Positions 26,055-47,763 of a stretch of 64,000 nt of DNA are shown one piece after another. The DNA is from a virus (Duplodnaviria; Caudoviricetes). The translations under genes were made by a program, and so were the position numbers. Position 1 is the first letter of the stretch, and every line of letters starts with the position of its first letter. Below the pieces are notes generated by a model, which did no database searches, was not told the origin of the DNA, and was given only the letters and a program-made list of their open reading frames with translations. The stretch spans positions 55,121 through 119,120 of IMG/VR virus record IMGVR_UViG_3300017911_002159. One strand, written 5' to 3'.

Positions 26055-27146
26055 ATGGCACAGAAAGGTGTTTTAGGCGGTCTTAGACTCGTAAAAATGG
26101 GAAGTCAGTGGGCGCAGCCTACTGGTATGTATGACGCCGGTGTTAGAAACAACGGTATTTTCCCAGCAGACCCAGATCCTGCAGCAAATGCAGGTAAATC
26201 TATCGATTGGTTAGACTACGAATCTTTCCTAGACCCAATCACAGGTAAAAGAATTTCTAGAAAAGAGGCATACGAGCAAGAACTTCTTGCTTTTGGTGAT
26301 GGTCTTTATGTAGATCAGAAAACCAAAACAGCATTAGATCTTTTTTCCAAGTCAGATGTTTTTAAGAAAAGATTTACTTTCACCACAAGATGGGGTGTAA
26401 GACCAACAATCACGAACATCTTGGCTGGCGGTATCGATGATTCGTATCATGCAACTGGCGAAGCCGTTGATATTCAGCATAACTTCGGAACAAATCTTTC
26501 TGGAGAAGCAACCAAAGATCTTCAGGATGTTATTATTCAAGCTCTTGCTTCTGGTTTCAGAGGTATCGGCTTCGGCCCTACCCAATTCCATTTTGACACC
26601 AGACCCGGAAGAGGTGGTTTTTTAGGTTACGTATATCAAAACTGGCCAAAGAAGATCACTCCTATGTTCGTGATGCAGTCTATTTTAAGAGATAGAATTG
26701 CAGACGTAGAACTTTCTGAAGATGAAATTAAACGAATTGCTAGAGATACACCTTTAACAGATACTGATTCTGGCCGTTCTGGTAAGAGTAAAGCACAGAT
26801 GTCAGAGGCAGACATCGAAAAATACATTAAACCGCTTTATGGTAAAGAAACAGAAGTTGTTAGAGTAAACACTGTAGGCAGAGATGTGGCTGTGATCTCT
26901 GTTGTTTTAGGTGTTCTTTTTGCCGGTATCTACGGTGCTCAAAGATTTTTTAGATCGAGAGCAAAAAAGAAAGAGACACAAAGACTCTTGCAAGATAGAA
27001 AAAGAAGAGTTATTATTTCTAAATTCAGAAATGAAAACAAAAGGGCAATTGCTAAAGCAAAGAATGATCCTGAACTTGCTGCACAGTTAGAGGATCAGCT
27101 TAAGTCTCAGTTTGCCCTTTATGACGTACCTTTTGAAGAACAATAA
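26055..27146 (+). CDS. peptidase M15-family Zn peptidase with C-terminal membrane anchor
   Basis: SYHATGEAVDI, GFRGIG....FHFDTR; TM VAVISVVLGVLFAGIYGA then basic tail. Confidence 0.75.
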   Translation: MAQKGVLGGLRLVKMGSQWAQPTGMYDAGVRNNGIFPADPDPAANAGKSIDWLDYESFLDPITGKRISRKEAYEQELLAFGDGLYVDQKTKTALDLFSKSDVFKKRFTFTTRWGVRPTITNILAGGIDDSYHATGEAVDIQHNFGTNLSGEATKDLQDVIIQALASGFRGIGFGPTQFHFDTRPGRGGFLGYVYQNWPKKITPMFVMQSILRDRIADVELSEDEIKRIARDTPLTDTDSGRSGKSKAQMSEADIEKYIKPLYGKETEVVRVNTVGRDVAVISVVLGVLFAGIYGAQRFFRSRAKKKETQRLLQDRKRRVIISKFRNENKRAIAKAKNDPELAAQLEDQLKSQFALYDVPFEEQ

Positions 27147-27159
27147 TTAGGGAATTATA

Positions 27160-27294
27160 ATGGCTAAAGTGGATTTGACGAAGAGTACAAGCAAACAGCA
27201 TGTAAGAACTTCTATTGGTAAATCAGCAAACTCTAGACCTAACAACAAACAAAAACGTAGAGCTTGGAAAGCTTACAGAGGACAAGGAAAATAA
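27160..27294 (+). CDS. small basic protein (not in ORF track)
   Basis: MAKVDLTKSTSKQHVRTSIGKSANSRPNNKQKRRAWKAYRGQGK*, AGGGA RBS. Confidence 0.7.
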   Translation: MAKVDLTKSTSKQHVRTSIGKSANSRPNNKQKRRAWKAYRGQGK

Positions 27295-27295
27295 A

Positions 27296-27532
27296 ATGGC
27301 TAAAAAAGAAAAAGTATTATCGTCGGCATCAAGAACCTCTTCGGCACCTATTCAGGCAGCAAAGCCTGCAGCACCAGCATCAAAGCCAGTTGCACAAGAT
27401 ACTTCTAACAAGTATAAAGAAGCTCTGGAAGCCATTGTTAAGGCTTCTGAGAAGGTTGCAAGTGCTACAGGTAACAGAAACTTCAGAATCGAACTCAATC
27501 AGGCAATTTCGGCAGCTAAGGCTCTTCTGTGA
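27296..27532 (+). CDS. Ala/Lys-rich hypothetical protein
   Basis: ATG 27296 behind AAGGA, after the 27160 ORF. Confidence 0.6.
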   Translation: MAKKEKVLSSASRTSSAPIQAAKPAAPASKPVAQDTSNKYKEALEAIVKASEKVASATGNRNFRIELNQAISAAKALL

Positions 27533-27909
27533 ATGATGAACAAGCAATAAAGTCAATCAAACTCACTTCTGGTGAGGAGATTGTCGGTGTTGTGCATGAG
27601 ATTTCTGAGTCTTATGTAGAAGTCCAAAGTCCTTTTGTTGTTAGTAAGACAATGGGATCTTCCTTTATGTTGTTGCCTTGGATGATTACGTCTGAAATCA
27701 ATCAGATTCACTCCATCAACATATTAAATGTATCTTCTGTAGCTGAATCATCTTCCGATTTTCTTAGAGCTTACATAAAAGTTATTAAAGAAAATGCAGA
27801 AGACGAAGACCAAGAATTCGAGGTCAAGTCTTTAGATGAGTTTGATGAAGAAATGGAAGAAGAAGAGGAGGAGTTAGATATGACTCCTCCTGATACTACC
27901 GTCCACTAG
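27529..27909 (+). CDS. Sm-like-fold T4-like hypothetical with acidic tail
   Basis: IKLTSGEEIVG, L.PW, ends DTTVH. Confidence 0.65.
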   Translation: MNDEQAIKSIKLTSGEEIVGVVHEISESYVEVQSPFVVSKTMGSSFMLLPWMITSEINQIHSINILNVSSVAESSSDFLRAYIKVIKENAEDEDQEFEVKSLDEFDEEMEEEEEELDMTPPDTTVH

Positions 27910-28253
27910 TATCTAACACGGCCTAGTGCATCGAATCCTAAACGTGGCAGACTATAAGAAAATTTCGGTGCAGGAATATCTGCTCTAGTAAGTGGTTTGC
28001 CCATATTAGAGAATGCTCTCACACCCGGAGAAATTTCAGGATACTGTCTTGCTGGCTGTGCAGGTTTGAAGGCAGCATTTCTTGGAGGATTTGGACCAGA
28101 CAGCCCACTTCCGATTTTAGGATGACTTGCACCAGTAATATCATCAGGAGTGAATCCCGGAGGCAGTTCTTCTTCTGCCATAACTGCTGGTCTTAAAGCA
28201 GCAAGACCAAATTCCATCAAAGTCTCTTTTCCTAAAAGAAGTTTTTTACTCAT
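27906..28253 (-). CDS. Pro-rich putative head-internal protein (leader ...KETLME)
   Basis: Last gene of coupled minus-strand late cluster. Confidence 0.55.
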   Translation of the reverse strand: MSKKLLLGKETLMEFGLAALRPAVMAEEELPPGFTPDDITGASHPKIGSGLSGPNPPRNAAFKPAQPARQYPEISPGVRAFSNMGKPLTRADIPAPKFSYSLPRLGFDALGRVRY

Positions 28254-28714
28254 GCTTCGCCAATCCTTGTTTTTGCTACACTAACTCCGGAAAGTGGTTT
28301 ATTGCTTGCTACAGCTAAACCTAATCCTCGTCCCTTATTTATTCCGATTTGAAGTCTGTTAAGAATATTTGATTGCAGACTTCTTCTTTCGTTGTTTCTC
28401 ATTTGCCGACCAACGGTATCCACAAGACTTTTTTCGGGATCTAACGTAGTATTTCTAGATCTGTTCAAAACAGAAGCAACAGGACCAACCAGAGCTAAAG
28501 ATGCTAAACCTGCTGCACCAGTTGCTAAAAGACCCTTGTTGCTTTTAGCTAAACCCAAAAGACCGCCTTGTCTTGTGTTAGGTCCGTAGTTGTAACCAGA
28601 AGCTTGTCTTGCCACGTCAACCGGAGGAGTGTTGATGACAGGCTTACCCATAATCATGTTTGTTACAGGGTTTTCGTTTAGAACTTCTTCTTTAAGCTGC
28701 TGGTATGTTTTCAT
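28250..28714 (-). CDS. putative head-internal protein, leader MKTYQQLKEEVLNE, TM segment
   Basis: Close match to T4 CTS MKTYQEFIAE; GLLATGAAGLASLALVGPVASVLNRSR. Confidence 0.65.
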   Translation of the reverse strand: MKTYQQLKEEVLNENPVTNMIMGKPVINTPPVDVARQASGYNYGPNTRQGGLLGLAKSNKGLLATGAAGLASLALVGPVASVLNRSRNTTLDPEKSLVDTVGRQMRNNERRSLQSNILNRLQIGINKGRGLGLAVASNKPLSGVSVAKTRIGEA

Positions 28715-29436
28715 TAGAGAACATCCTTATACAATCTCTCAAACTCTTCATCGGTGAGTCTGTTACGAATAGCTGAAATATTTACATTTTCATCTTCGAT
28801 AGCATCTAACAGAATAGTACGAGCCATCGTTTCATCACCAGCATCTAAGGCATCACCAATCTCATCAGCAATCCTTCTATTTCTAAGAACTTTCATAATT
28901 CTTGGTGTTGCTCTTCTCATAGCTTCGACAGAACCAGCAAAAACAGCTATAAGAATTAATACAATAGTTACATTTACTTTCAGCCAAGCCTGTTGTCCTT
29001 CCGGTAAAGGCAAACTTTCAATTGCTTTATCATATGCACCTTTTAATGCACTTAATGCACCTAAGACAGCAGAAAATGCTAAAGAAAAAGCAGTTGCTGC
29101 TGCAGTAGCCCTAGCTCTAGCAAACTTCCAAACCTCAGCAACAAGTGATACTAATCCTCCCCCTGCTAAGGCTAATAATCCTTTTTGAGTAAGGTCTATG
29201 CCAATTCTACCCTGTAGACGTGAGCCACGGGGTGTTAACGAACCGGGTTTGTCTGCTTTGTAAGGCTCATTTCTTGTATAAGATAGTTTTCTTTTATCAA
29301 GAGCACTTAAAACATTACCTCTAGGAGGTCTTCCTTTAAATCCTGTTATATATGCACGGGGAGATTGGAAGGCAAGATTTCTTGGAGGTCTTCTTTGCTC
29401 CATCATTTCTCTTAACACATCTTTTGAGTATGACAT
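28714..29436 (-). CDS. multi-TM protein with leader MSYSKDVLRE
   Basis: Three hydrophobic segments separated by basic patches. Confidence 0.6.
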   Translation of the reverse strand: MSYSKDVLREMMEQRRPPRNLAFQSPRAYITGFKGRPPRGNVLSALDKRKLSYTRNEPYKADKPGSLTPRGSRLQGRIGIDLTQKGLLALAGGGLVSLVAEVWKFARARATAAATAFSLAFSAVLGALSALKGAYDKAIESLPLPEGQQAWLKVNVTIVLILIAVFAGSVEAMRRATPRIMKVLRNRRIADEIGDALDAGDETMARTILLDAIEDENVNISAIRNRLTDEEFERLYKDVL

Positions 29437-30191
29437 CAGTACTGCCCTCTGTTTAATCTATTGGCATTTCTTCTTTTAATAGCTTGATAATAGTCATAGT
29501 TATATGGTCTTAGGGGGCCAGCTTTATCAAGTATACTTTTTAATCCTTTTAATCCAGTCATAACTAGATTTACAGGACTCTCTGTTATAGGTCTTGGCTT
29601 TGGAATAGGGAAACTGACTGGTACAGTTCTGGTAGGCTTTAGTCTGTCTAATGGGTTCTTATCTGGTCTATTTGATGGAGCATATACACCAATAGATGGG
29701 TCGGGATTGTTTGGATCTGGGCCATCACCGACACCAAAATAGTTTATACCTTGTATAGTTCTAGTAATTGGTTTGGTAGCAGGAGGATCCATATAGATTT
29801 TATCACCGCTTCTATAATACGTTATTGGTCGTGGCTTTACTTTACTAGCAAGATAAGCACCACTAATGCTTGTGCCATCACCAATGTCTACTAGATTATC
29901 ATCATTAAACTGTTGTTCCGAAAGAGTCATTGCACCTAATTTCATTATCTGTTCGTTAAATCTTACAGAGTCCACAAAATCATCTGGAGATGCTGTAAAT
30001 TCAAAATCATTTTTTACGTAGTCGTTAAAGAATCTACCAGCAGAGTCTGCATTAATAAAATCATTGTAAACATCTTCAGGCACGTTGATGTAAGTGTAGT
30101 TTTTGCCAGAACCAGCAAATCTTACATTCATCTTTTTAGTCTTTTTGTTGTACGTGACCTTAGTGATGGCCGAAGAATCGAGTCTAGGCAT
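29436..30191 (-). CDS. KTSC-domain protein with Pro-rich extension
   Basis: SSAI..V.Y......V.F..G..Y.Y..VP..VY..F..A.S.G.FFN..VK. Confidence 0.8.
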   Translation of the reverse strand: MPRLDSSAITKVTYNKKTKKMNVRFAGSGKNYTYINVPEDVYNDFINADSAGRFFNDYVKNDFEFTASPDDFVDSVRFNEQIMKLGAMTLSEQQFNDDNLVDIGDGTSISGAYLASKVKPRPITYYRSGDKIYMDPPATKPITRTIQGINYFGVGDGPDPNNPDPSIGVYAPSNRPDKNPLDRLKPTRTVPVSFPIPKPRPITESPVNLVMTGLKGLKSILDKAGPLRPYNYDYYQAIKRRNANRLNRGQY

Positions 30192-30670
30192 TAGATAAAT
30201 CTATTTTTCTTTTTTCTTTTGCCGCCCTCAGAAGGAAGCTTTGTTGTACCAGTGGCAAAATATCTTGCTGTACGACCACCAAGACCGACACCTTTTCTAA
30301 TACCGTAACCAGTGCCTTTGATTAGACCATAGGTTAGACCTGCAGTACCGCCAGCAAGACCACCCATCGTGACATAATTTGGATTTCCTGTTAAAGCTTG
30401 AGCACCAAGACCCATTAAACTACCAAGTGCAGCACCGCCAAGAGTACCGGCAGCGGCTCCACCAAATGCACCTAAAGGAGCTGCTGTAGCACCACCATAG
30501 TATCGACCAACATTAAGGCCAATTCGACCAGTTGTTGTTTCTGGTGTGTCCATTTGTTCTGGCGAAACCATTACGTCAGATCCAAGTCTTGTAGAAAATG
30601 GATTGATAGTGCTGCCCTTTTTCTTTTTCTTTCCTCTAGCTTCTTGAATGGCCATTCTTGAGTAAGACAT
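30191..30670 (-). CDS. glycine-zipper protein with leader MSYSRMAIQE
   Basis: GAFGGAAAGTLGGAALGSLMGLG and GGLAGGTAGLTYG; poly-Lys at both ends. Confidence 0.65.
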   Translation of the reverse strand: MSYSRMAIQEARGKKKKKGSTINPFSTRLGSDVMVSPEQMDTPETTTGRIGLNVGRYYGGATAAPLGAFGGAAAGTLGGAALGSLMGLGAQALTGNPNYVTMGGLAGGTAGLTYGLIKGTGYGIRKGVGLGGRTARYFATGTTKLPSEGGKRKKKNRFI

Positions 30671-30671
30671 T

Positions 30672-31094
30672 TTAATATCTCCCGTCTCTTTCTAACTCCG
30701 CTGCAATAGCATTAGCATAATCGATATCTGCTGCTCTAGAACCAGCTATAGCAGAGCCAAGTCTTGATCCTGCCGCTGCACCAAGCACGCCAAGACCTAC
30801 CTGTGCCAGACCTGTAACTTTTCCTTTAGTAAAGGCATCTTGACCACCAACACTTGCACCGTATTTGCCGCCAGCCATTATACCTAAAGCAGTTCCAGCT
30901 AAGGCACCGATACCACGACCAACAAGTCTTCTTCTATCAGACTTTCTTTTTTGGTCTGTTACTTGTGGATCGATATCAACAAACTTTCTTTTAAAAGCTA
31001 CCTGTGGAGCAGAAGATTCATAGACACGATGATGTCTTTGTTGTTTTGTGGGCGAAAAAGCTTCTTTGATAGCTTCATTACATGCTTGACACAT
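30672..31094 (-). CDS. glycine-zipper protein with leader MCQACNEAIKE
   Basis: RRRLVGRGIGALAGTALGIMAGG, GLGVLGAAAGSRLG; AAGGAG RBS. Confidence 0.65.
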   Translation of the reverse strand: MCQACNEAIKEAFSPTKQQRHHRVYESSAPQVAFKRKFVDIDPQVTDQKRKSDRRRLVGRGIGALAGTALGIMAGGKYGASVGGQDAFTKGKVTGLAQVGLGVLGAAAGSRLGSAIAGSRAADIDYANAIAAELERDGRY

Positions 31095-31115
31095 ATATAT
31101 CTCCTTGAATTTCTA

Positions 31116-31583
31116 CTATTTAGGTGGATTGGCAGTATTCTGAACGTTTCTTATGGCTTGAGCAGGTGTGCTGATTTTAAAACGATTCAAACCAGCTTGA
31201 ATTAAAGCACTTGCATCAGAAGGAGAGAAAGAAGCTCCTTCAACACCTTGCCTAGATGCAGCAAAGTTAGCCAAACCTCTTGCTTGTTCAGCCCCTGTAT
31301 AAACCTTAGCAGCACCTAATCTTGCAGGAGAAGACGTTTGGTAAGGCGGCTCTTGAGGTTTCTTACCAAAAAGACCAAACAGTTCGTAAAGTCCTTGTTC
31401 GATGAGTTGTTCTTTTTTCATTGGAAGTCCTTTATGTTTTGTTGAAGCATATTTTTCGATATCTTTTAGAGTCATAGAATCAGCAGCTTTTTTTACGTCT
31501 GCTGATACGTCTTTCACTTCACCTCTTTTGTAGGCGAGTACAAGACCAAAAAACTTTTGTTGTTGTTTTGATACTGCTGGCAT
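31116..31583 (-). CDS. DUF3008-like N-domain plus extension
   Basis: MPAVSKQQQKF.G...AYKRGE...SMT.K...YASTKHKGLP.K; LIE/LYE sites at the junction. Confidence 0.65.
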   Translation of the reverse strand: MPAVSKQQQKFFGLVLAYKRGEVKDVSADVKKAADSMTLKDIEKYASTKHKGLPMKKEQLIEQGLYELFGLFGKKPQEPPYQTSSPARLGAAKVYTGAEQARGLANFAASRQGVEGASFSPSDASALIQAGLNRFKISTPAQAIRNVQNTANPPK

Positions 31584-32144
31584 TTAAATTACCTCGAATA
31601 AGTTTCTACCGAATGATCTAACAACATCACCGTCTTGAGAGATCATAATTCTTTGCATGTCTCTAAGCTTGGTGTCTGTAAGGTGTCTTCTTCTCATACC
31701 TTGTGCTAAGAAGATATGAACTTCTATTGGATCGTCACCTTCAACTTCTTGAACGGCAACCATTCTGTTTCTGCCTTCATGGTTCATGACTTCTGCAGGT
31801 TGATCACCCTCTTCATCAACCCTTACGATTAAGAAAGGAGCACCGATAGCTTCTCCGTCCCTTAGTTCGTTAGCAATAGAGGAAGCAGATCTAGCAAAGA
31901 AGTTTCTTCTTTCGGCAAGTTCTAAGAAAACAGATGGTTTCATAAGAGTTCTGACGCCAAGATAATCGACTTCTTGGTTATCAGGTACAGCACCCATTCC
32001 TCTGACATTATCGATAACGACTTCTTTAAGAGCTTTAAGACCTTCATTCATGATGGCAGCTTTTTTGATGTAAGGAACACTTCTTGTTCTAAAGTCTGTG
32101 CTACGTCTGCCGTATGGATTGATAGGGTTTCTTTTAAATCTCAT
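31584..32144 (-). CDS. ParB/Srx-like domain protein
   Basis: IGAPFLIV....V..HEGRNRM. Confidence 0.5.
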   Translation of the reverse strand: MRFKRNPINPYGRRSTDFRTRSVPYIKKAAIMNEGLKALKEVVIDNVRGMGAVPDNQEVDYLGVRTLMKPSVFLELAERRNFFARSASSIANELRDGEAIGAPFLIVRVDEEGDQPAEVMNHEGRNRMVAVQEVEGDDPIEVHIFLAQGMRRRHLTDTKLRDMQRIMISQDGDVVRSFGRNLFEVI

Positions 32145-32146
32145 GC

Positions 32147-32293
32147 TTATCTCTTTCTCATGGTTATGAGTCCGAGTCCTCTGTTAGGATTACGTGACTT
32201 AATAGGAATTCTGAGAGGATTAGGATTAGCAAGAGGATTGGTGACTGCTTCTCTCAGAGCTTTGTAGCCTATTTCCATAAGTCTTCTGGACAT
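32147..32293 (-). CDS. 48-aa basic peptide with leader MSRRLMEIGYKALRE (not in ORF track)
   Basis: Coupled TAATG start; leader nearly identical to upstream gene. Confidence 0.7.
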   Translation of the reverse strand: MSRRLMEIGYKALREAVTNPLANPNPLRIPIKSRNPNRGLGLITMRKR

Positions 32294-32697
32294 TATCTTG
32301 GTCCTTTTTTTGCATTAGATTTAAAGATGCCTTGAGCAATAAATGGATCTTGTCTCCTTGGGATGTCACCCTCAATATCTAATTCTCTTCTTGCAGAATC
32401 AAACTCATCTTTGTAAACACCCCGCTGACCTTGAAGTTCACTATATGCATTTTGCCTCATTCTTTCATATGCTTGATTTTCTAATTTGGGGGGAAAATTG
32501 TAGTCAGGATACTTTTTAGTCAGGTCTGCAGCGGGTTTAGTAACACTTTTAACCACTTCATCCCCCGGATTACCTGTCATAAAAGTATTCATATTACGGG
32601 CAAATCCATCTTTTGACACAGCAGTAGGAGATCTCATGTGCATTTGCTCTCTTTCTCTCAGAGCTTTGTATCCCATTTCCATCAATTCTCTAGACAT
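32293..32697 (-). CDS. putative head-internal protein, leader MSRELMEMGYKALRE
   Basis: First gene after minus-strand late promoter. Confidence 0.6.
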   Translation of the reverse strand: MSRELMEMGYKALREREQMHMRSPTAVSKDGFARNMNTFMTGNPGDEVVKSVTKPAADLTKKYPDYNFPPKLENQAYERMRQNAYSELQGQRGVYKDEFDSARRELDIEGDIPRRQDPFIAQGIFKSNAKKGPR

Positions 32698-32727
32698 GTC
32701 CCATTCCTTTGTGTTATAAGTTACCCC

Positions 32728-41369: not shown

Positions 41370-41587
41370 AGACCAAAGAAGTAAACCTGAAAGTTCGTCC
41401 CCTTGAACTGGATATGCTGATCGACGTGATCCGCTTCACCACAAACCTCAAGAACACTCTACCAGAGGGTTCTATGAAGGAGATGGATGACGAACCTATC
41501 TTCAACAGACCCGGTGAAGCACTTCTGGCTTATCTAGAAGAGATGAAACAGAAGGTCGAGACACAGCCTTCTTACACTATTCAATAA
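41366..41587 (+). CDS. hypothetical protein
   Basis: ATGA overlap. Confidence 0.55.
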   Translation: MKTKEVNLKVRPLELDMLIDVIRFTTNLKNTLPEGSMKEMDDEPIFNRPGEALLAYLEEMKQKVETQPSYTIQ

Positions 41588-41797
41588 TAAAAAAACTCAT
41601 GCTGCTACGAGGAACGCTAATGAAAATATGTTATAAGAAAACAAAGGAAGACAAGACAATGTTTGCTTTTGGCATGATCTGCGTTTTGATTATTGCTCTT
41701 TCAGTCCTCGTACTTTTATGGAGAGCATAGTTGACTTTCCCTGATCTTCTTTGTATACCATTTGTTATGGTATTAAGGAGAAGGAGATCAGGGAAAA

Positions 41798-41944
41798 ATG
41801 ATCAAACAAGAACTATCAGACTTTGAAGAGATGGTTCTAGAAGATATTCTAGAGGAGTTAGGACTTACTTCGATAGCATTTAGAGAAGATAGTAGAAACT
41901 ATCTTTATGCTGTTAGAAAATTCTGGGAAAGGAGACTAGAATGA
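41798..41944 (+). CDS. 48-aa hypothetical protein with hairpin-sequestered RBS
   Basis: MIKQELSDFEEMVLEDILEELG..FWERRLE*. Confidence 0.5.
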   Translation: MIKQELSDFEEMVLEDILEELGLTSIAFREDSRNYLYAVRKFWERRLE

Positions 41945-42187
41945 ATGTGTTTAACAACATTATTGTGTTTGTTATGTGGGTCGTTTCTGCCTACTTCATA
42001 GTAAATGTGTTAGACCTTGTTTTTTTCGGAAGGATGTAGTATCACTTAGTTGAAAGAGACGTAAATGTCTGTGAAAGGATAAATACTATGGATATGATCC
42101 GTCAAATCTATGGTTTCCTCATTTTTGTTGTGTTGGTTTACGGAGCTTGTCAGATACTGAAGTTTATCATATTCTAGTGGACAAGAA

Positions 42188-43291
42188 ATGACTCCAAAAC
42201 AAAGAGAAGTTTTTGAAAAATATCAAGAACTGGAATCTTTTGCTAAAGTTGCAGATGCTTTAAATATAAATAAATCAACTGCAAGAGAGCATTATCAGAA
42301 AGCCCTTAAGTATCAACAGACCGATCAGGGCATTAAAGATGCAATGTATGATACTGGCATTGCAGATATTGGCAAAGTACATTCGGGATGGCTCAAGACT
42401 GATGCTGCGAGTCTGTACTTTGTCAATCCAAGGGAAGAAGGTGGTGTTGATAACCTTATCGACACCTTCAAAGAGGCTCTTAAGGATTGTCCTACTTCTT
42501 TACCGACTGCCAAACCTGAAGGCACAGATGGAGATCTTCTGACTCGGTACATCCTGACCGATCTCCATTTTGGCATGAGAGCATGGGCAAAGGAAGCTGG
42601 AGAGGATTATGACCTCGATATTGCTAAGTCTAGGCTCAATTATGCCCTTTCTAACCTTGTTCAGAGCACTCCAGACAGTAAATATTGTGTAGTATTGAAT
42701 TTGGGTGATATGTTTCACTCAAATGATTACAAAAATATGACTCCACAAAGTGGACATATCCTTGATGCTGATGGCAGATTCAGTAAAGTCATTTATGAAA
42801 CGATACAATCTGTTGTTGCTGCTATCGAAACCTTAAAAAATAAACATGAAAATGTTCAATATGTTGGAATTTCGGGCAATCATGACCCTGATGCCAACCA
42901 ATTCCTGACAGTTGCCTTGATGATGAGGTATGCAGACGATCCAAGAGTGGAAGTTATCTGGAATCCAGCTAAAATGTGGTGCATGAATTTCGGAAGAAAC
43001 CTTTTAGCAGCACATCATGGCGATAAAGTTAAGCCTGAAAGACTTGCTATGCAGGTTGCAGATGATTTTTCCACAAAATGGGGTACTACGTACTGGAGAT
43101 ACTTGGATACAGGACATATTCACTCCGATTCAGCCAAAGATATTGGTGGAATTTTTTGGGAATCTCACAGAACTTTAGCAAGCAGAGATGCTTATGCTAC
43201 TGGTTCAGCCTATACGACTCGAAAAACACTAAAAGCTATCACGGTTCACCGTGAAAAAGGTGAAATTGTTAGAAATACAGTAGGTGTCTGA
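42188..43291 (+). CDS. HTH-fused calcineurin-like metallophosphoesterase
   Basis: N-terminal HTH (KVADALNINKSTAREH); DLHFG, GDMFH, GNHD, HHGD, GHIH. Confidence 0.8.
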   Translation: MTPKQREVFEKYQELESFAKVADALNINKSTAREHYQKALKYQQTDQGIKDAMYDTGIADIGKVHSGWLKTDAASLYFVNPREEGGVDNLIDTFKEALKDCPTSLPTAKPEGTDGDLLTRYILTDLHFGMRAWAKEAGEDYDLDIAKSRLNYALSNLVQSTPDSKYCVVLNLGDMFHSNDYKNMTPQSGHILDADGRFSKVIYETIQSVVAAIETLKNKHENVQYVGISGNHDPDANQFLTVALMMRYADDPRVEVIWNPAKMWCMNFGRNLLAAHHGDKVKPERLAMQVADDFSTKWGTTYWRYLDTGHIHSDSAKDIGGIFWESHRTLASRDAYATGSAYTTRKTLKAITVHREKGEIVRNTVGV

Positions 43292-43758
43292 TGAAATACT
43301 ACATTATCTGGGAAGAATCCGGTGTTAAGAAGAAGAAAACGTACTCTTCGAAACCGGGTGTTTCCTACTGGAAAAAGAAGATTGTTGGTCTTCTGGGTGA
43401 AAATGCAATTATTGAAGAAGGCGAAGAGAAAAATGAAGTGGAAACAGTAGAAAAGCCGAAAAAAGAGGCAAAAAAATCTACTGGCTTCAATAAAGTTGCT
43501 TCCGTTTCATCAGAAACCAAAAAATCCACAGAAAATCCAAAAAAGAACAAAGATTTCAATCAATCAAATTGGAATCCAGAAAAAAACAAGTACACAAGCC
43601 GAATGTATAACAGTTTTAATGACACTGTACGTGTTATTGAGCCTGATGATACCATTTCCCTGCAGGGAAATGATATTATTAAGAAACATGACAAAGAAAG
43701 GGGGATTTACACACTTACAGACGGAAGAAAGTTCACAGTTTCAGGATGGCCAGCATAG
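43291..43758 (+). CDS. hypothetical protein
   Basis: Coupled start. Confidence 0.6.
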   Translation: MKYYIIWEESGVKKKKTYSSKPGVSYWKKKIVGLLGENAIIEEGEEKNEVETVEKPKKEAKKSTGFNKVASVSSETKKSTENPKKNKDFNQSNWNPEKNKYTSRMYNSFNDTVRVIEPDDTISLQGNDIIKKHDKERGIYTLTDGRKFTVSGWPA

Positions 43759-43767
43759 GAGAAAGAC

Positions 43768-43953
43768 ATGGATTTCAAAAAATTAAGTATTACTCAGTTA
43801 AGAAGGATGAAAGAAGACTGCAAATACAATTTGATGAATGAAGAATTTAAAAACAAACGTCCTGTAGGTTTTTCTGCTTTATATGTTGACACACTTAAAA
43901 ATAATATGTTATCTATTGACCAAGAACTTAAATTACGAGGTGAAGATATTTGA
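43768..43953 (+). CDS. hypothetical protein
   Basis: AGGAG RBS. Confidence 0.55.
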   Translation: MDFKKLSITQLRRMKEDCKYNLMNEEFKNKRPVGFSALYVDTLKNNMLSIDQELKLRGEDI

Positions 43954-44297
43954 TCCAGAGTCGGCCTTGGGGTGGCTGGGAACTGCTCCACAAATCGGAC
44001 ACGTATGCAGTCAAAAGACTAGTCGTTAAGCCCCTTTGCAGACTCTCACTGCAGTATCATGAGCATAGGAAAGAGCACTGGTACTGCGTAGCGGGAAGGG
44101 GGATAGTTACTTTAGATAATGTTGAGCAAAATATTAGTGCTGGTGATTCAGTAACTGTCCCCCTCGGGTCAGTTCACCGTTTAGAAAATATTTCTTCTTC
44201 AGAACATTTGGTTGTAGTTGAAGTTCAAGAAGGTGTTTACCTAGAAGAAGATGACATCATTAGAGTTGAAGATGATTATGAAAGAATTTCATCATAA
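43950..44297 (+). CDS. cupin, mannose-6-phosphate isomerase type II domain
   Basis: RPWG, LSLQYH.HR.EHW, HRLEN, EVQ.G..L.EDDI.R.EDDY. Confidence 0.9.
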   Translation: MIQSRPWGGWELLHKSDTYAVKRLVVKPLCRLSLQYHEHRKEHWYCVAGRGIVTLDNVEQNISAGDSVTVPLGSVHRLENISSSEHLVVVEVQEGVYLEEDDIIRVEDDYERISS

Positions 44298-44742
44298 AAA
44301 GATTGCTGTTGTCTCTGGTGGCTTTGATCCACTGCATCCGGGGCATGTTTTCATGTTCCAAGAGGCAAAAAGGCATGGTGAACTTCTGATAGCTGGTGTA
44401 AACTCTGATGACTGGCTGAAAAGAAAGAAGGGTAAACCCTTCATGGAGTTTGGTGATAGACTTCAAATGGTTCAAACAAATCAGTTTGTTGATTTAGCTG
44501 TAGGTTTTGAGGATGATGATGACACGGCGATTGATCTCATTTATAAAGTCTCGAAAATATTCAGTTCTTCTTATATTGTTTTTTGCAATGGCGGAGACCG
44601 TGCTTTGGATAACACTCCCGAGTTTAACCATTTTGACGGTGATTCGAGGTTTCTTTTCGAATTCGGAGTAGGTGGCTCTTACAAGTATGCATCTTCTTCT
44701 GAACTTTTAGAAAATTGGAAATTAGCTCCCTTGGCGGAATAG
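44278..44742 (+). CDS. cytidylyltransferase-like (TagD/RfaE family)
   Basis: SGGFDPLHPGH, NSD.WL.RKKG, NGGDR, SSS. Confidence 0.88.
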   Translation: MKEFHHKKIAVVSGGFDPLHPGHVFMFQEAKRHGELLIAGVNSDDWLKRKKGKPFMEFGDRLQMVQTNQFVDLAVGFEDDDDTAIDLIYKVSKIFSSSYIVFCNGGDRALDNTPEFNHFDGDSRFLFEFGVGGSYKYASSSELLENWKLAPLAE

Positions 44743-44810
44743 GTAGACGCTGCAGACTTAAAATCTGTTTTCCTTTGGAAGTGCCGGTTCGAGTCCGGCA
44801 GGGAGTACCA
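44725..44810 (+). tRNA. tRNA-Leu(UAA)
   Basis: Cloverleaf GCTCCCT/AGGGAGT, anticodon loop CT-TAA-AA, long variable arm, TTCGAGT, encoded CCA. Confidence 0.95.
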
Positions 44811-44888
44811 TTTGGTTGTTTACGTCTTAGATCAAAATGAAATCGTTTTTCTGAAAAGGGCATTGAGGAAGAACAAAGGAGAGATAAA

Positions 44889-45110
44889 ATGAAGAGATAT
44901 TCTGTTAAAGAGTTTATCAAAGTAGTAGAGGAATCTGACATTGTTTATGGAATGTGTAGCCTAAACGCTGCTATGAATATAGAGAGCAGAATCCGAAAAA
45001 AGAGCTTGCTTAAGCAACTGGAGTCTGCTAGTGTAAATGTCGATGAGTTAGGGATTTTTGCTTCCTTTTCTACTGATGCAAAAGGCCGTAAAATTCTAAA
45101 ACTCGTTTAG
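44889..45110 (+). CDS. hypothetical protein
   Basis: AAGGAG RBS. Confidence 0.6.
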   Translation: MKRYSVKEFIKVVEESDIVYGMCSLNAAMNIESRIRKKSLLKQLESASVNVDELGIFASFSTDAKGRKILKLV

Positions 45111-45111
45111 T

Positions 45112-45220
45112 CAACTATGAGCCACGGTTTCCTTTCGATTCCTTTCGGTTAGCGTCGTCGTAGTTGTCTTAGGGGAGAAAGAGGGAAGTTGATGGTTGCG
45201 CAGCTTCCCTCTTTTCTTTT
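45112..45220 (+). ncRNA. putative sRNA with tandem UUCCUUUCG loop and terminator
   Basis: Stem 45112-20/45158-66; hairpin 45176-45217. Confidence 0.4.
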
Positions 45221-45256
45221 GTGGGTAATCCTTAATCCCACCTATACACTTTCTTA

Positions 45257-45333
45257 GGGCTTGTAGTTCAATTGGTCAGAACCCTCGGCTCATAACCGAG
45301 TTGTTACAGGTTCGAGTCCTGTCAGGCCCACCA
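45257..45333 (+). tRNA. tRNA with CAU anticodon, likely Ile2 (lysidine), possibly Met
   Basis: GGGCTTG/CAGGCCC stem, CT-CAT-AA, A73, CCA; G1:C72 argues against fMet. Confidence 0.9.
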
Positions 45334-45341
45334 TTTCTCTG

Positions 45342-45349
45342 CATAAATA
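45342..45349 (+). promoter_or_regulatory. late promoter variant
   Basis: CATAAATA. Confidence 0.65.
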
Positions 45350-45378
45350 GAATAGATAATTTTTTTGCAGAGGCCAAA

Positions 45379-47763
45379 ATGAAAAATTTTTCCAGTTTAA
45401 AAGAAGAAATTTGTTTAGAATGTAGTCTTACAGAAGCTACACAGGTTCCTACACCACCAATAGAGGGAGGTGTAGACGTAGAATCTTGGTTTAGATCATG
45501 CAAAATGCCTGAGTTTGGCACTCCTTTATTTTTAATTCTTTATTGGTATATGGCTTATGCTGGTGTTTATCTTGATCATGGAGAAGATTCTGAAAAAAGT
45601 TTTCCTGAGCAAAAAGAAGAGAGATTGAAATTTTTTTATGACATGGAAAGATTGGGCTGGTTAGATGAATATCCTCAAAGAAACCCTAATATTCAATGTA
45701 TTTCCAATGCTCTTGTAAAGGTTGTCAATACACCAATTAGTGCTTTTGACACTAATGAAGATCCTTTAAATAGGAGAACATATTCTTACGGTTCTTCTGT
45801 TGATTCTCCTATAGGAATTGATGTCAGTGCTCCAGCAGACTTTCAGGAGATATGGAAGGAACTTCCCGGTAATACCTTATTGATGAGAGAAGTTGAAAAA
45901 CAGGCTCGTCTTGATTCTAAAAGACATGAATCTATGACTCAACTTCCAAGACCTATGGTACAACGTATACGAGAAACTGATCCTTACAATCACCAAATAA
46001 CTTATGATAAACATTTTTTTAATCATATTCTTCAATCTATGGCAGATTCGGATGAAGTTTATGAAACAAATACTTTAAGAGATCCTGTCTTACAGTTAGC
46101 TATGATGGGTGATCCTAAGGGACCACAATATGCTAATATGCCAAAAATTAAATTTTCAAAAACAAGCTATGGCTCTGTTCATCTCCCGATTAGAGGTCAA
46201 TATGAACAAGGAGAACCAGATCGAATAACGTTAAATTATATCAGATATCTTTTTAATGATGGTCCAAATGGTGTACAAGGTTTAGCAAGAACATTAGCAC
46301 ACGAATTTAGACATAGAGCATTTAATATAATTTTTGATAATGATGAAATTTATAAAGAGATGCCACCAGAGCTTAAGCAAGGTGGTAAATGGTATGGTTC
46401 TTGGGGTGGAAACTATAATGGTGGTCCAGATATCAAGGGTGAAAATGGCGAAACTGTAGAACATGCTATGATTTATTGTCAAGATCAAGAAGATGTTTTA
46501 AATTCAAGAGCTGCTAGCTTTGTCACTTTCTTTAATCAAGACTTATATCCTCCTGCATATTGGAGAGATTTATATGCAAAGGTAAGTCAGGGTGTTGGTC
46601 GGTACTTAGCACAATTTGCTAAGGTGCCTACACGAAGACCTACTACTGGAATTCCACCGCATATTAAACTTCCCGATGCATCGCCAGAAGAAGTTAAAAG
46701 AAGAGCAGAAAAAAATGCAAAGGATATGGAAAAAAGACATCTTTTGCCAAAATTGCAATCAGATGCTGTTGTAAGAGAAATGTACAATAGATTGAATCTG
46801 TACGAATTTGGGTCGATCGATTATAACCCCAATAGAGCACAAACTATAGCAAGTATTATCAATAGACTTGATTCAGAAAGGGGTGCTATTGAAATATTCT
46901 TAATGTTTAGGTTTATTGCGTTAAAATTTTCTGGCGACAAGAAAGAAAAACAGTTAGTTCCTGCTCTCAAAAGATTATTGGGTGAGTGGGAACTTGAAGT
47001 CTCGATGAAAGGTAATTGGTACAAAGCAAAAATATACCCACAAAGAATGTTGAGAATTTCTAAAGCTGCTGGTGCTGATTTAGGTGATAACGAAGGTAGA
47101 CTTGAAGATTGTATTAAAAAATTTGATGAGTTGGAGAGAGAAATTAAGAAAAAGCATCCTGAGGGTTGGAAATATTTCTCTTACGATTATATCGAAAAAT
47201 ATTTAAGAAGAAATCCTGATTATGATCCCTTCAACCCTACTGGTGAGCCGACTCCTCCTGTAAATGCTCCTAAACCGGTAGCTCCGACACCGACAACACC
47301 GGTAACTCCTGCTACACCAGCCACACCAATTTCTTCTGGCAGAGGGACACCTGCTACTGCTCCGCCAGAAGAAAAGAAGAACCCTTGGGAAAATATTTTT
47401 ATTTCCAGTAGAAAAAGAAGAACAGGACCAAGACAACCATCTTCACCGACTACAATTGAAAGACCAGTAGACAAAAAGTTGATTGAAAAAATTCGTGACA
47501 TTATTGATAATATCAGAAAGGAAAAGCCTTATCTTGGCGATAGAGCACTTATAGCTGGTGCTGTTGTTGCTGTTGTTGCTGGCGGTTTCTTTGCTTTCAG
47601 AAAATATCTTTTTGATAGAAAGACACAAAGAGTTGCTTCTACGGTTCTACGTGACCCTAAGTCTAGAGATATGATACAAGATCTTAGAAAGCGTGAAAGA
47701 AGAAGAGTGCTTGAACTTTTAAAAGATAAAAACTTTAGAGAAAGAGTTTTAGCTGAAGTCTAA
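45379..47763 (+). CDS. zincin-like (HExxH) protein with CTS-like leader, Pro/Thr linker and C-terminal membrane anchor
   Basis: MKNFSSLKEE..SLTEA; TLAHEFRH; PTPTTPVTPATP; ALIAGAVVAVVAGGFFAF-RK; start moved out of the tRNA. Confidence 0.7.
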   Translation: MKNFSSLKEEICLECSLTEATQVPTPPIEGGVDVESWFRSCKMPEFGTPLFLILYWYMAYAGVYLDHGEDSEKSFPEQKEERLKFFYDMERLGWLDEYPQRNPNIQCISNALVKVVNTPISAFDTNEDPLNRRTYSYGSSVDSPIGIDVSAPADFQEIWKELPGNTLLMREVEKQARLDSKRHESMTQLPRPMVQRIRETDPYNHQITYDKHFFNHILQSMADSDEVYETNTLRDPVLQLAMMGDPKGPQYANMPKIKFSKTSYGSVHLPIRGQYEQGEPDRITLNYIRYLFNDGPNGVQGLARTLAHEFRHRAFNIIFDNDEIYKEMPPELKQGGKWYGSWGGNYNGGPDIKGENGETVEHAMIYCQDQEDVLNSRAASFVTFFNQDLYPPAYWRDLYAKVSQGVGRYLAQFAKVPTRRPTTGIPPHIKLPDASPEEVKRRAEKNAKDMEKRHLLPKLQSDAVVREMYNRLNLYEFGSIDYNPNRAQTIASIINRLDSERGAIEIFLMFRFIALKFSGDKKEKQLVPALKRLLGEWELEVSMKGNWYKAKIYPQRMLRISKAAGADLGDNEGRLEDCIKKFDELEREIKKKHPEGWKYFSYDYIEKYLRRNPDYDPFNPTGEPTPPVNAPKPVAPTPTTPVTPATPATPISSGRGTPATAPPEEKKNPWENIFISSRKRRTGPRQPSSPTTIERPVDKKLIEKIRDIIDNIRKEKPYLGDRALIAGAVVAVVAGGFFAFRKYLFDRKTQRVASTVLRDPKSRDMIQDLRKRERRRVLELLKDKNFRERVLAEV

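What the first reader, a model, noticed from the sequence alone, without database searches (positions are those of the whole stretch)
26055..47763. Two unrelated peptidase domains ~20 kb apart share a gapless homologous C-terminal anchor module
Seen: the M15-type peptidase (26055) ends VGRDVAVISVVLGVLFAGIYGAQRFFRSRAKKKETQRLLQDRKRRVIISKFR, and the HExxH protein (45379) ends LGDRALIAGAVVAVVAGGFFAFRKYLFDRKTQRVASTVLRDPKSRDMIQDLR. They align without gaps over ~50 aa (G..TM..G, R, L-x-D-x-K-x-R-x-x-I-x-x-[FL]-R). Neither has an N-terminal signal peptide. Inference: by the positive-inside rule the enzyme domains would face the periplasm, so this may be a phage C-terminal sorting or docking tag for envelope hydrolases delivered from the virion or used at lysis.
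Basis: partly seen in the sequence, partly recalled or inferred. Interest (0 to 1): 0.8.

Follow-up and report, generated by a model that had tools for sequence, protein, structure and literature searches.

The report
Shared membrane-anchor tail on phage proteins
A marine T4-like phage attaches the same conserved C-terminal module (a weakly hydrophobic helix plus a basic helical tail) to at least three unrelated proteins, and its relatives attach it to cell-wall enzymes of several kinds; it is most likely a portable tag that anchors capsid-delivered or lysis proteins in the host's inner membrane.

Summary
The two tails are homologous: architecture-preserving shuffles give p~0.002, a profile of A-orthologue tails hits B at 3.8e-8, and hhalign gives 97% over 76 gapless columns.

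- **Third copy.** Protein C (460 aa) lies 3 kb before the window, between the portal and prohead-protease genes, in the slot of T4 gene 68.
- **Spread.** A three-tail profile found 35 proteins among 1.84 billion, 34 with the module at the C-terminus. They carry at least 8 unrelated passengers, including M15/LAS peptidase, Amidase_2, PG_binding_1 and an HExxH protein.
- **Subtypes.** Tails form three subtypes that do not follow passenger families. This genome has one of each.
- **Conservation.** The tail is more conserved than the passenger in every family.
- **Leaders.** B and many relatives begin with leaders like the T4 capsid-targeting sequence MKTYQEFIAE.

Best reading (about 0.45): a portable latent membrane anchor on head-packaged, ejected proteins that act in the periplasm. 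Rivals are a C-terminal-TMD endolysin-type lysis device and a gp68-like prohead-core or assembly tail.

No cultured phage carries the module, so nothing is experimentally tested. The scan's other notes on this genome flagged the leaders, not this module.

The parts
26055..27146 (+). Gene A: 363-aa protein made of an M15/LAS-type zinc peptidase domain, a linker and the A-type tail module
   Evidence: ORF and translation. Orthologues at 36-99% identity. AF2 model has pLDDT 76.
26367..26639 (+). Catalytic core of A (residues ~105-195), with invariant S130-Y-H132-x-x-G-x-A-x-D139 and Q177-x-H179-x-D181
   Evidence: Invariant columns in 11 sequences. Pfam Peptidase_M15_3 is below cut-off here (14.2 bits) and reaches 22.7 bits in relatives. 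VanX 1r44 gives Z 5.1 over model residues 8-184. Weak Foldseek rows are VanXYc and hedgehog N domain.
26862..27143 (+). A-type tail module (residues 270-363): Gly/Ala-rich hydrophobic helix ~278-296, collar A-G-I-Y-G-A-Q-R-F-F, basic helix, D338-P339 turn, last helix
   Evidence: AF2 helices at 300-327, 329-335 and 339-355 have pLDDT 71-88.
45342..45349 (+). CATAAATA, a T4-type late-promoter-like box 30 nt before the ATG of B
   Evidence: Sequence. NATAAATA sits 24-90 nt upstream of sheath, scaffold, capsid and leader-bearing genes of this genome.
45379..47763 (+). Gene B: 794-aa protein made of a CTS-like leader, a conserved HExxH domain, Pro-rich linkers with an SSGRGTPATAPP motif, and the B-type tail module
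45379..45435 (+). N-terminal leader of B, MKNFSSLKEEICLECSLTE, ending in L-x-E before Ala. Conserved as MKKFSDLKxDICxECxLxE|A in orthologues.
   Evidence: T4 CTS is MKTYQEFIAE (PMC8442874). Prohead protease gene is present (phrog_207 5.9e-81).
46300..46314 (+). HEFRH (H308-E309-x-x-H312) of B, at least 90% conserved in 9 full-length homologues. A second conserved E361-H362 lies downstream.
   Evidence: Alignment A2. No Pfam or PHROG family. Atlas leads M85/M91 scored only 0.88.
47521..47760 (+). B-type tail module (residues 715-794): PYLGD, hydrophobic helix 723-740, collar GGFFAFRKYLFDRK, basic helix, KD(K/P) turn, last helix
24284..26001 (+). Context of A: three late genes for exported proteins. 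They are a secreted 136-aa protein, a 215-aa outer-membrane-barrel-like protein ending GVGFKF, and a 114-aa lipoprotein with an LSGC lipobox. All three have classical signal peptides.
   Evidence: Translations. NATAAATA lies 36 nt upstream of 25007. The same neighbours occur in the A-orthologue locus L091.
26007..26038 (+). Hairpin plus T-run between the lipoprotein gene and A. No promoter-like site lies between it and the ATG of A.
45257..45333 (+). tRNA-Met (CAT) directly upstream of B. It fixes the start of B at ATG 45379.

Best explanation
SHOWN. A, B and a third protein C carry one homologous C-terminal module. C is at genome 50653-52035 = L001:10653-12032, 3 kb before the window. The module consists of:
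- a marginally hydrophobic Gly/Ala-rich helix;
- an invariant interfacial collar, GG-x-(F/Y)-x-F-R-(K/R)-(Y/F)-L-x-(N/D)-R-(K/R);
- a 55-80 aa basic helix-(K/R)DP-helix domain.

The module is portable. In uncultured marine T4-like phages it ends at least 8 unrelated passenger families, several of them directed at peptidoglycan. It exists in three subtypes, and this genome has one of each. The C-type copy always occupies the T4 gene 68 slot, between the gp67-like gene and the prohead protease gene.

INFERRED mechanism.
1. The proteins are made late.
2. They are taken into the prohead core. The route would be T4-type N-terminal capsid-targeting leaders where present, and possibly their gp68-like basic tails binding the acidic core.
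3. They travel in the capsid with the hydrophobic helix uninserted.
4. They are ejected at infection.
5. The helix then inserts into the host inner membrane from the periplasmic side, with the basic tail inside.
6. This tethers the passenger (M15 peptidase or amidase, PG-binding domain, zincin-like domain) in the periplasm at the entry site. There it would open or hold the wall and possibly build the inner-membrane passage. The three tail types may form one hetero-oligomer.
For: - **Homology.**
- **Purifying selection.** The tail is more conserved than the passenger in all five families tested: 42 vs 37, 61 vs 39, 78 vs 59, 44 vs 22 and 53 vs 33 % identity.
- **Portability.** There were 35 hits at E<=1e-3 (13 at <=1e-10) among 1.84e9 representatives, 34 of them C-terminal. 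They fall into at least 8 passenger clusters by BLASTP. The tail tree has three clades that cut across passenger families. Amidase_2 appears twice independently on A-type tails.
- **Periplasmic targets.** Amidase_2 5.9e-21 and 1.3e-17; PG_binding_1 1.3e-12, 2.6e-10 and 4.7e-17; M15_3 1e-4 to 5e-2 in four members.
- **Head link 1.** C sits between the gp67-like gene and the prohead protease gene. In 10 of 10 related IMG/VR loci that reach far enough, the order is tube, portal, gp67-like, tail-bearing gene, protease, scaffold. This matches T4 genes 19-20-67-68-21-22.
- **Head link 2.** Several leaders fit the T4 CTS at its key positions 4, 7, 8 and 10: MKTFKRYLEE, MKEFNKFLTE, MIEFKKFLHE, MKTFSELTE, MSFKEHLQSLTE, and B's MKKFSDLK...LxE|A. 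Only 2 of 167 genes of this genome fit the strict pattern, both MKTY....
- **Late expression.** CATAAATA lies before B. C lies in the late head operon.
- **Latent anchor.** The summed insertion free energy is -0.2 to +5 kcal/mol and both flanks are non-exportable, so insertion in the producer cell is frustrated.
- **No hub lysozyme.** The baseplate hub has an OB-only gp5 of 158 aa and no lysozyme domain. No other wall hydrolase family was found in the 119 kb.
Against: - No virion proteome, topology or activity data exist. No cultured phage has the module.
- A and C of this genome lack a CTS-like leader.
- A lies next to, and is probably co-transcribed with, genes for exported envelope proteins. 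That fits a role in the producing cell.
- Experimentally characterised endolysins with a C-terminal TMD lyse cells without holin or Sec (PMC7143992).
- Packaging a hydrophobic helix inside a capsid, and pulling a +5 to +11 tail across the membrane from outside, are both unproven steps.
- The record is only 66% complete. Therefore 'no other lysin' and 'one copy of each type' are provisional.
- AF2 gave the hydrophobic segment pLDDT below 50.
Confidence: 0.45

Rival explanations
1. Lysis device. The module is a holin-like C-terminal TMD plus charged tail. It lets wall hydrolases (A-type) reach the peptidoglycan of the producing cell without holin or Sec, as in endolysins M4Lys, Enc34 and LysAP. 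B and C would be accessory or unrelated users of the same membrane tag.
For: - A is the only wall hydrolase detected in the 119 kb.
- M15 and Amidase_2 swap on the same tail, as endolysin modules do.
- PHROG endolysin hits: phrog_894 for A, and phrog_1493, phrog_2649 and others for relatives.
- A follows a conserved late cluster of a secreted protein, an outer-membrane-barrel-like protein and a lipoprotein.
- Precedent: the M4Lys TMD is indispensable, lysis is independent of Sec and holin, and the predicted topology is N-out/C-in (PMC7143992).
- The Gly/Ala-rich marginal helix resembles SAR domains.
Against: - T4 CTS-like leaders occur on A-family, amidase and B-family members. An endolysin does not need them.
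- The C-type copy is fixed in the head-assembly operon.
- The tail is 55-80 aa and conserved as a domain. M4Lys has only a few charges after its TMD.
- Many passengers have no hydrolase signature.
- No holin T or spanin pair was found beside A.
- The lipoprotein lacks the C-terminal TMD of a unimolecular spanin.
Confidence: 0.25
2. Prohead-assembly tail. The module works on the cytoplasmic side only. The basic domain, like the basic C-terminus of T4 gp68, binds the acidic scaffold core. The hydrophobic helix ties the proteins to the inner membrane, where T4-type proheads are initiated. The module serves incorporation or anchoring during assembly and may be clipped by the prohead protease. It would have no role in the next host's membrane.
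For: - The C-type gene is in the gene 68 slot.
- T4 gp68 ends in a very basic ~60-aa tail.
- The neighbouring gp67-like protein has a long acidic tail.
- T4 heads assemble on the inner membrane and are released after gp21 cleavage, and Alt and gp21 have C-terminal propeptides (PMC9026906).
- B-type tails are preceded by a conserved L-(V/I)-E site about 20 residues before the helix.
- This reading would explain packaging of A and C without an N-terminal leader.
Against: - There is no significant similarity to T4 gp68 or gp67.
- A conserved L/I-x-E site before the helix is seen only in the B-type.
- It does not explain why the passengers are peptidoglycan hydrolases and PG-binding domains, which still have to reach a periplasm.
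- It is partly compatible with the best explanation rather than exclusive of it.
Confidence: 0.2
3. Convergence. Unrelated single-span anchors look alike because any hydrophobic helix followed by Arg/Lys aligns.
For: BLASTP with composition adjustment gives E 1.2. Post-helix tail alone gives p=0.017.
Against: - Segment-preserving shuffles give p=0.002.
- Profile and profile-profile tests give 3.8e-8 and 2.9e-11.
- No other hydrophobic ORF of the genome scores.
- The collar and the DP turn are invariant across 44 sequences.
- Only 35 hits occur in 1.84e9 proteins, nearly all C-terminal.
Confidence: 0.02

Closest known systems
T4 internal proteins IPI-III and Alt (capsid-targeting-sequence cargo ejected with the DNA)
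   Same: - T4-like phage with a gp21-type prohead protease.
- N-terminal leaders matching MKTYQEFIAE at the functionally mapped positions.
- Highly variable cargo behind a constant targeting element.
- Late genes.
   Different: - The constant element studied here is C-terminal and contains a hydrophobic helix.
- The cargo is directed at the wall or periplasm, not at cytoplasmic restriction systems.
- There is no sequence homology to the IPs.
- A and C of this genome lack the leader.
Podovirus ejection proteins / ejectosome (T7 gp14-gp15-gp16, P22 gp7-gp16-gp20, PhiM1, N4)
   Same: - Capsid-stored proteins that insert into host membranes after ejection.
- One of them carries a wall hydrolase (the T7 gp16 transglycosylase).
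- They come as a set of three.
   Different: - Those belong to short-tailed phages and form a stacked core on the portal.
- No shared modular tail is known there.
- No PHROG or Pfam similarity was found here.
- The present phage is a contractile-tailed T4 relative.
Endolysins with a C-terminal transmembrane domain (BSPM4 M4Lys, Hafnia Enc34, Acidovorax AP1 LysAP)
   Same: - N-terminal wall hydrolase.
- No signal peptide.
- C-terminal TMD followed by positive charges.
- Predicted N-out/C-in topology.
   Different: - Those have a TMD at the very end with a few charges.
- They are single genes in lysis cassettes and share no module with other proteins.
- Here the tail is a conserved 55-80 aa domain shared by at least 8 passenger families, three per genome, one of them in the head operon.
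T4 gp68 (prohead core protein)
   Same: - Same gene position: portal, gene 67, gene 68, gene 21.
- Very basic C-terminal tail.
- gp21 sites (L/I-x-E) near the N-terminus.
   Different: - gp68 is 141 aa and has no hydrophobic helix.
- There is no significant sequence similarity.
- Slot proteins here are 313-783 aa with variable passengers, some with PG-binding signatures.
SAR endolysins and holins
   Same: - Gly/Ala-rich, marginally hydrophobic helix that could enter or leave the bilayer.
- Charged C-terminal tail, as in holins.
   Different: - SAR domains are N-terminal and Sec-dependent.
- Holins are small, dedicated membrane proteins.
- Neither is a portable C-terminal domain on large passengers.

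Membership tests
Peptidase M15 / LAS zinc peptidases (protein A) | Zinc-ligand motifs SxHxxGxAxD and a downstream HxD/H | tested here: met
   S130, H132, G135, A137, D139, H179 and D181 are invariant in 11 sequences.
Peptidase M15 / LAS zinc peptidases (protein A) | Score above the Pfam gathering threshold (PF08291, 23.2 bits) | tested here: not met
   A scores 14.2 bits. The best relative scores 22.7 bits, E 1.1e-4. Four members hit the same profile region.
Peptidase M15 / LAS zinc peptidases (protein A) | LAS fold | tested here: inconclusive
   AF2 core has pLDDT ~85. VanX 1r44 gives Z 5.1, rmsd 3.8, 128 residues aligned. Foldseek rows for VanXYc and hedgehog N domain are at E 2-3 only.
Zincin metallopeptidases (protein B) | Conserved HExxH plus a downstream third ligand | tested here: met
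   H308, E309 and H312 are at least 90% conserved, and E361-H362 is conserved.
Zincin metallopeptidases (protein B) | Match to a curated family or a zincin fold | tested here: inconclusive
   No Pfam, PHROG or PDB sequence hit. One relative hits DUF3810 at E 0.0018. Atlas leads M85/M91 scored 0.88, below the trusted range. No model of B was made.
T4-type capsid-targeted internal proteins | N-terminal ~10-19 aa leader like MKTYQEFIAE, ending in (L/I)-x-E | tested here: met
   Met for B (MKNFSSLKE.., LTE|A) and for A-family, amidase and H-family relatives. NOT met for A and C of this genome.
T4-type capsid-targeted internal proteins | gp21-type prohead protease and scaffold core encoded by the phage | tested here: met
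   phrog_207 5.9e-81 and phrog_237 2.2e-54.
T4-type capsid-targeted internal proteins | Physical presence in the mature head and ejection into the host | not testable with these tools
   Needs virion proteomics. No cultured member was found.
C-terminal-TMD endolysins (M4Lys type) | Wall hydrolase domain plus C-terminal TMD with positive charges after it, and no signal peptide | tested here: met
C-terminal-TMD endolysins (M4Lys type) | Gene in a lysis cassette (holin or spanin neighbours) | tested here: inconclusive
   The neighbours are a secreted protein, an outer-membrane-barrel-like protein and a lipoprotein. No holin T was found. No spanin pair was recognised.
C-terminal-TMD endolysins (M4Lys type) | TMD-dependent lysis on expression | not testable with these tools
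   This is an experiment.
T4 gp68 prohead core protein (protein C) | Gene between gene 67 and gene 21 | tested here: met
T4 gp68 prohead core protein (protein C) | Sequence similarity to gp68 | tested here: not met
   hmmsearch E>=0.056 with near-zero bits, and BLASTP E 2.6.
SAR endolysins | N-terminal signal-arrest-release helix | tested here: not met
   The only hydrophobic segment is C-terminal.

The most novel reading that the evidence does not exclude
A clade of marine T4-like myoviruses has its own 'ejectosome'. Three paralogous C-terminal tails (A-, B- and C-type) would assemble into one inner-membrane complex after ejection from the capsid. Each tail would carry an exchangeable, fast-evolving periplasmic cargo: wall hydrolase, zincin or wall-binding domain. 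The module would then be a general delivery-and-anchoring tag for polymorphic virion effectors. It could also be part of the long-sought inner-membrane passage of contractile-tailed phages.
Probability: 0.3. Interest if true: 0.85.

Novelty: new variant of a known kind. Interest (0 to 1): 0.66.

Why it matters
- **Delivery logic.** If the module is a delivery or anchor tag, it gives T4-like phages a second cargo logic besides the N-terminal capsid-targeting sequence. That logic would be C-terminal and aimed at the envelope rather than the cytoplasm.
- **DNA entry.** It would identify candidate proteins for the poorly understood step in which a myovirus crosses the wall and the inner membrane. 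This phage's baseplate hub lacks the lysozyme domain of T4 gp5.
- **Annotation.** The tail profile is a specific handle: 35 hits in 1.84 billion proteins. It can be used to mine uncultured marine phage genomes for envelope-acting cargo and to annotate the variable gene 68 slot.
- **If it is a lysis device.** It would extend the little-known class of C-terminal-TMD endolysins to oceanic T4-like phages, whose lysis genes are largely unidentified.

Tried and rejected
- **Pairwise BLASTP of A vs B** was not significant. Shuffles and profiles were needed.
- **Other hydrophobic, basic-tailed ORFs of the genome** (window 28714-29436, 52237-53223, 59196-59690 and others) are not members; E>0.05 with every tail profile.
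- **Cultured phages (INPHARED).** No match for A (blastn and tblastn), B, C or P0032. Only the amidase domain of P0029 matches endolysins.
- **IMG/VR.** No B relatives and no FAFRKYL pattern. One A orthologue locus was found.
- **JGI metagenomes.** Only four B-orthologue loci, with no second tail gene nearby.
- **GTDB genomes.** None, so there is no sign of a bacterial or prophage origin.
- **Alignment A5** was too divergent for the search for related loci.
- **PDB sequence searches** of all three families found nothing.
- **AF2 of C** failed (pLDDT 34, 3 sequences), so C's passenger is unassigned.
- **Foldseek on the A model** gave nothing at E<=0.001. The VIA wide list is dominated by the helical tail.
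- **The Atlas** gave only weak leads for B and nothing for the tail.
- **The phrog_6191 lead** from P0032 did not hold up in this genome.
- **Conserved protease site between passenger and helix.** Considered and dropped as a general feature. It is seen only before B-type tails.

Full report
**What the window is**

The window is the last 64 kb of a 119,120-bp linear IMG/VR virus record that CheckV rates 66% complete. It is a T4-like myovirus:
- The order sheath stabiliser, terminase, sheath, tube, portal, prohead protease, scaffold and major capsid protein lies just before the window.
- Baseplate genes lie further upstream.
- T4-type replication genes lie inside the window.
- The portal is only 54% identical to those of cyanomyoviruses.
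- All close protein relatives come from marine metagenomes such as the Tara <0.22 µm fraction, and none has a name.

**Check of the observation**

A (26055-27146, 363 aa) and B (794 aa) contain the quoted strings. B starts at ATG 45379, because the upstream TTG lies inside tRNA-Met 45257-45333. The proteins do not end at the quoted strings. A has 39 more residues and B has 24 more.

| Test | Result |
|---|---|
| Best gapless BLOSUM62 segment | 62 |
| Full shuffle | 28.7+/-4.8, 0 of 1000 reach 62 |
| Shuffle keeping pre-helix, helix and tail compositions | 32.0+/-6.3, p=0.002 |
| Plain BLASTP | misses it |
| phmmer, B tail vs 465 ORFs of the genome | A at 0.0019; a third protein at 9.4e-6 |
| Profile of A-orthologue tails only | B 3.8e-8, C 8.1e-5, next ORF 0.08 |
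| hhalign between family tail profiles | A-B 97.2% (76 columns, no gap), B-C 96.5%, A-C 92.6% |

The homology is therefore real and is not a by-product of helix-plus-charges composition.

**The third member**

C (genome 50653-52035 = L001:10653-12032, 460 aa) ends ...ALGIGGQFAFRKYLKNRK.... B has ...VAGGFFAFRKYLFDRK... at the same place. C lies between a 135-aa gene and the prohead protease. The 135-aa product has an N-terminal helix and an acidic tail, like T4 gp67. T4 has the order 19, 20, 67, 68, 21, 22, 23, so C occupies the gene 68 slot.

**Anatomy of the module**

Alignments of orthologues and of 44 tails give this layout:
1. An 18-20 residue Gly/Ala-rich hydrophobic helix.
2. A nearly invariant collar, GG-x-(F/Y)-(G/A)-F-R-(K/R)-(Y/F)-L-x-(N/D)-R-(K/R).
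3. A basic helix of about 35 residues.
4. A (K/R)-D-P turn.
5. A final amphipathic helix.

AF2 models the post-helix part of A as helices 300-327, 329-335 and 339-355 with pLDDT 71-88. The hydrophobic segment itself stays below 50.

A position-independent sum on the Hessa scale (values from memory) gives -0.2 to +5 kcal/mol for the best 19-mer. That is marginal hydrophobicity, as in SAR domains. Net charge is about 0 in the 15 residues before the helix and +2 to +7 in the 15 after it.

The tail is better conserved than the passenger in every family tested:

| Family | Tail identity (%) | Passenger identity (%) |
|---|---|---|
| A | 42 | 37 |
| B | 61 | 39 |
| C | 78 | 59 |
| D | 44 | 22 |
| E | 53 | 33 |

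It is a functional domain, not just a stop-transfer signal.

**Spread and portability**

A profile of the three tails (80 columns) was scored against 1.84 billion representative proteins. It found 35 proteins at E<=1e-3 and 13 at <=1e-10. In 34 the match is at the C-terminus. The remaining hit is a repeat protein with seven weak stretches and looks spurious.

BLASTP of the passenger parts splits the collection into at least 8 unrelated families:

| Family | Members | Passenger | Evidence |
|---|---|---|---|
| A | 13 | M15/LAS peptidase | repeated sub-threshold M15_3 hits |
| B | 14 | HExxH protein | conserved motif |
| C | 4 | unassigned | none |
| D | 4 | unassigned | none |
| E | 3 | PG_binding_1 | 1.3e-12, 2.6e-10, 4.7e-17 |
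| F | 2 | Amidase_2 | 5.9e-21, 1.3e-17 |
| G | 2 | weak PG_binding_1 | E 0.004 |
| H | 1 | unassigned | none |

A tree of the tails has three clades:
- **A-type:** the A family; the two F-family amidases at two separate places; and two B-like passengers.
- **B-type:** the B family plus H.
- **C-type:** C, D, E and G, plus one B-like passenger.

Tails and passengers have therefore been recombined repeatedly. This genome has exactly one tail of each type.

**The gene 68 slot**

Eighty IMG/VR loci around portal homologues were fetched. Fourteen have portals 81-84% identical to this phage's. Ten of these extend far enough, and all ten show tube, portal, gp67-like, a gene ending in a C-type tail, protease, scaffold. 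None of the 66 loci with portals at 50-59% identity has such a gene.

The flanking proteins are 79-91% identical to this phage's. The slot proteins are 313, 511-542 or 783 aa and only 25-40% identical to each other or to C. Most begin with a KKLLLGK leader region that C lacks. The pattern of a constant tail and a variable body, set in a conserved operon, recalls the polymorphic internal-protein loci of T-even phages.

**Link to capsid targeting**

The T4 capsid-targeting sequence is MKTYQEFIAE (PMC8442874). Residues 4 and 7 matter for targeting, and residues 8 and 10 for cleavage by gp21. Alt and gp21 also lose C-terminal propeptides, and T4 heads are initiated on the inner membrane and released after proteolysis (PMC9026906).

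This genome has its own leader family: MKTYQQLKEEVLNE, MKTYNNMLNE, MSYSKNFIRE, MSYSRSLIRE, MSYSKDVLRE and MSYSRMAIQE. Other first-stage notes on this genome pointed to that family. I checked it only as far as listing the leaders.

Leaders among tail-bearing proteins:
- B starts MKNFSSLKEEICLECSLTE|A. Its orthologues keep MKKFSDLKxDICxECxLxE|A.
- A-family relatives start MKTFKRYLEE, MKEFNKFLTE, MIEFKKFLHE and MSFKKHLDE.
- An amidase starts MSFKEHLQSLTE|AR.
- The H protein starts MKTFSELTE|SAR.

Only 2 of 167 genes of this genome fit the strict pattern. A and C of this genome have no such leader. That is a real gap in the argument.

B has CATAAATA 30 nt upstream of its ATG. That is the same distance range as the NATAAATA boxes of the structural genes. 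C lies inside the late head operon.

**What the passengers are**

- **A.** It has the invariant SYHxxGxAxD and QxHxD motifs of M15/LAS enzymes. Pfam scores stay just under threshold. Fold matches to VanX and VanXYc are modest. I accept it as a LAS-type peptidase with moderate confidence.
- **B.** It has a conserved HExxH and a conserved EH downstream but matches no curated family. 'Peptidase' remains an inference.
- **C.** Its body is unassigned.

**Mechanism**

The passengers act on or bind peptidoglycan, so they must meet a periplasm. In the producing cell, a 270-720 aa N-terminal domain without a signal peptide is unlikely to be exported. A +5 to +11 tail is also unlikely to be translocated. 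A marginal helix between two non-exportable flanks is therefore expected to stay out of the membrane. The phage does use ordinary signal peptides when it wants export, as the three genes just upstream of A show.

Taken together with the leaders, the head-operon slot and late expression, the most economical model has these steps:
1. Packaging into the prohead core.
2. Ejection at infection.
3. Insertion from the periplasmic side with the basic tail inside, possibly drawn in by the membrane potential or along with the DNA.
4. Tethering of the cargo at the entry site.

The baseplate hub supports a need for such an enzyme. The gp5 homologue is an OB-only 158-aa frame, and no lysozyme, SLT, M23, Amidase_2, M15_4 or GH19 domain is present in the 119 kb. 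All of these steps are inferred, none is shown, and the record is incomplete.

**Rivals**

- **Lysis device, as in the C-terminal-TMD endolysins.** M4Lys needs its TMD and works without holin or Sec (PMC7143992). A is the only wall hydrolase found. It sits directly after a conserved late cluster of a secreted protein, an outer-membrane-barrel-like protein and a lipoprotein, separated only by a hairpin and with no promoter of its own. The leaders, the head-operon copy and the size and conservation of the tail argue against this rival.
- **Purely assembly-side role.** T4 gp68 has a very basic tail but no helix and no detectable similarity. The basic domain could bind the acidic core, and the helix could tie the proteins to the membrane-bound prohead. 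This reading is partly compatible with the main model.
- **Convergence** is excluded by the statistics.

**Novelty**

I found no description of a shared C-terminal helix-plus-tail module on T4-like head or lysis proteins in the held literature. No cultured phage carries it. Each ingredient has a precedent: CTS cargo, ejection proteins with membrane segments and hydrolase domains, and C-terminal-TMD endolysins. I therefore class it as a new variant of a known kind. There is a fair chance that it is more than that.

Noticed in passing
genome 50653-52035 (L001:10653-12032), 3 kb before the window: This is the third tail-bearing gene, in the T4 gene 68 slot. In related phages the slot holds proteins of 313 to 783 aa that are only 25-40% identical, while the flanks are 79-91% identical. 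It is a hypervariable gene inside the conserved head operon.
   Followed up: yes
window 117-2166, 27906-32697 (minus strand), 52237-53600: These genes have T4 CTS-like leaders: MSYSKNFIRE, MSYSRSLIRE, MKTYQQLKEEVLNE, MSYSKDVLRE, MSYSRMAIQE, MKTYNNMLNE and MSKKLLLGKETLME. Several also have Gly-rich hydrophobic segments. None matches the tail profile.
   Followed up: partly
genome 24306-24476 (L008): The gp5 homologue is an OB-fold-only frame of 158 aa. No lysozyme domain occurs in the hub region or anywhere in the 119 kb.
   Followed up: partly
window 24284-26001: This is a late cluster of three exported proteins with classical signal peptides. It comprises a 136-aa secreted protein, a 215-aa outer-membrane-barrel-like protein ending GVGFKF, and a 114-aa lipoprotein with an LSGC lipobox. 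The cluster is conserved next to the A orthologue in L091. Its function is unknown; lysis or envelope remodelling are possible.
   Followed up: partly
window 44251-44742 and 47767-48183: Two cytidylyltransferase-like genes (PF01467, 3e-13 and 4e-12) flank the tRNA-Leu, tRNA-Met and B region.
   Followed up: no
window 47300-47500 (B residues ~640-700) and orthologues: The motif SSGRGTPATAPP sits in Pro-rich linkers. It is conserved and repeated up to three times in B homologues. The leader also has a conserved Cys pair (ICxEC). Neither is explained.
   Followed up: no
genome 20630-21265, minus strand (L002:630-1262): A TnsA-like endonuclease N-terminal domain (PF08722, 7.7e-23) lies among the baseplate genes. 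It is probably a homing or mobile endonuclease.
   Followed up: no
L090 (T4 103023-103448): T4 gp68 ends in a ~60-aa tail very rich in Lys/Arg, and gp67 ends in a long acidic tail. The gp67-like protein of this phage is acidic in the same way. This suggests electrostatic pairing within the prohead core.
   Followed up: partly
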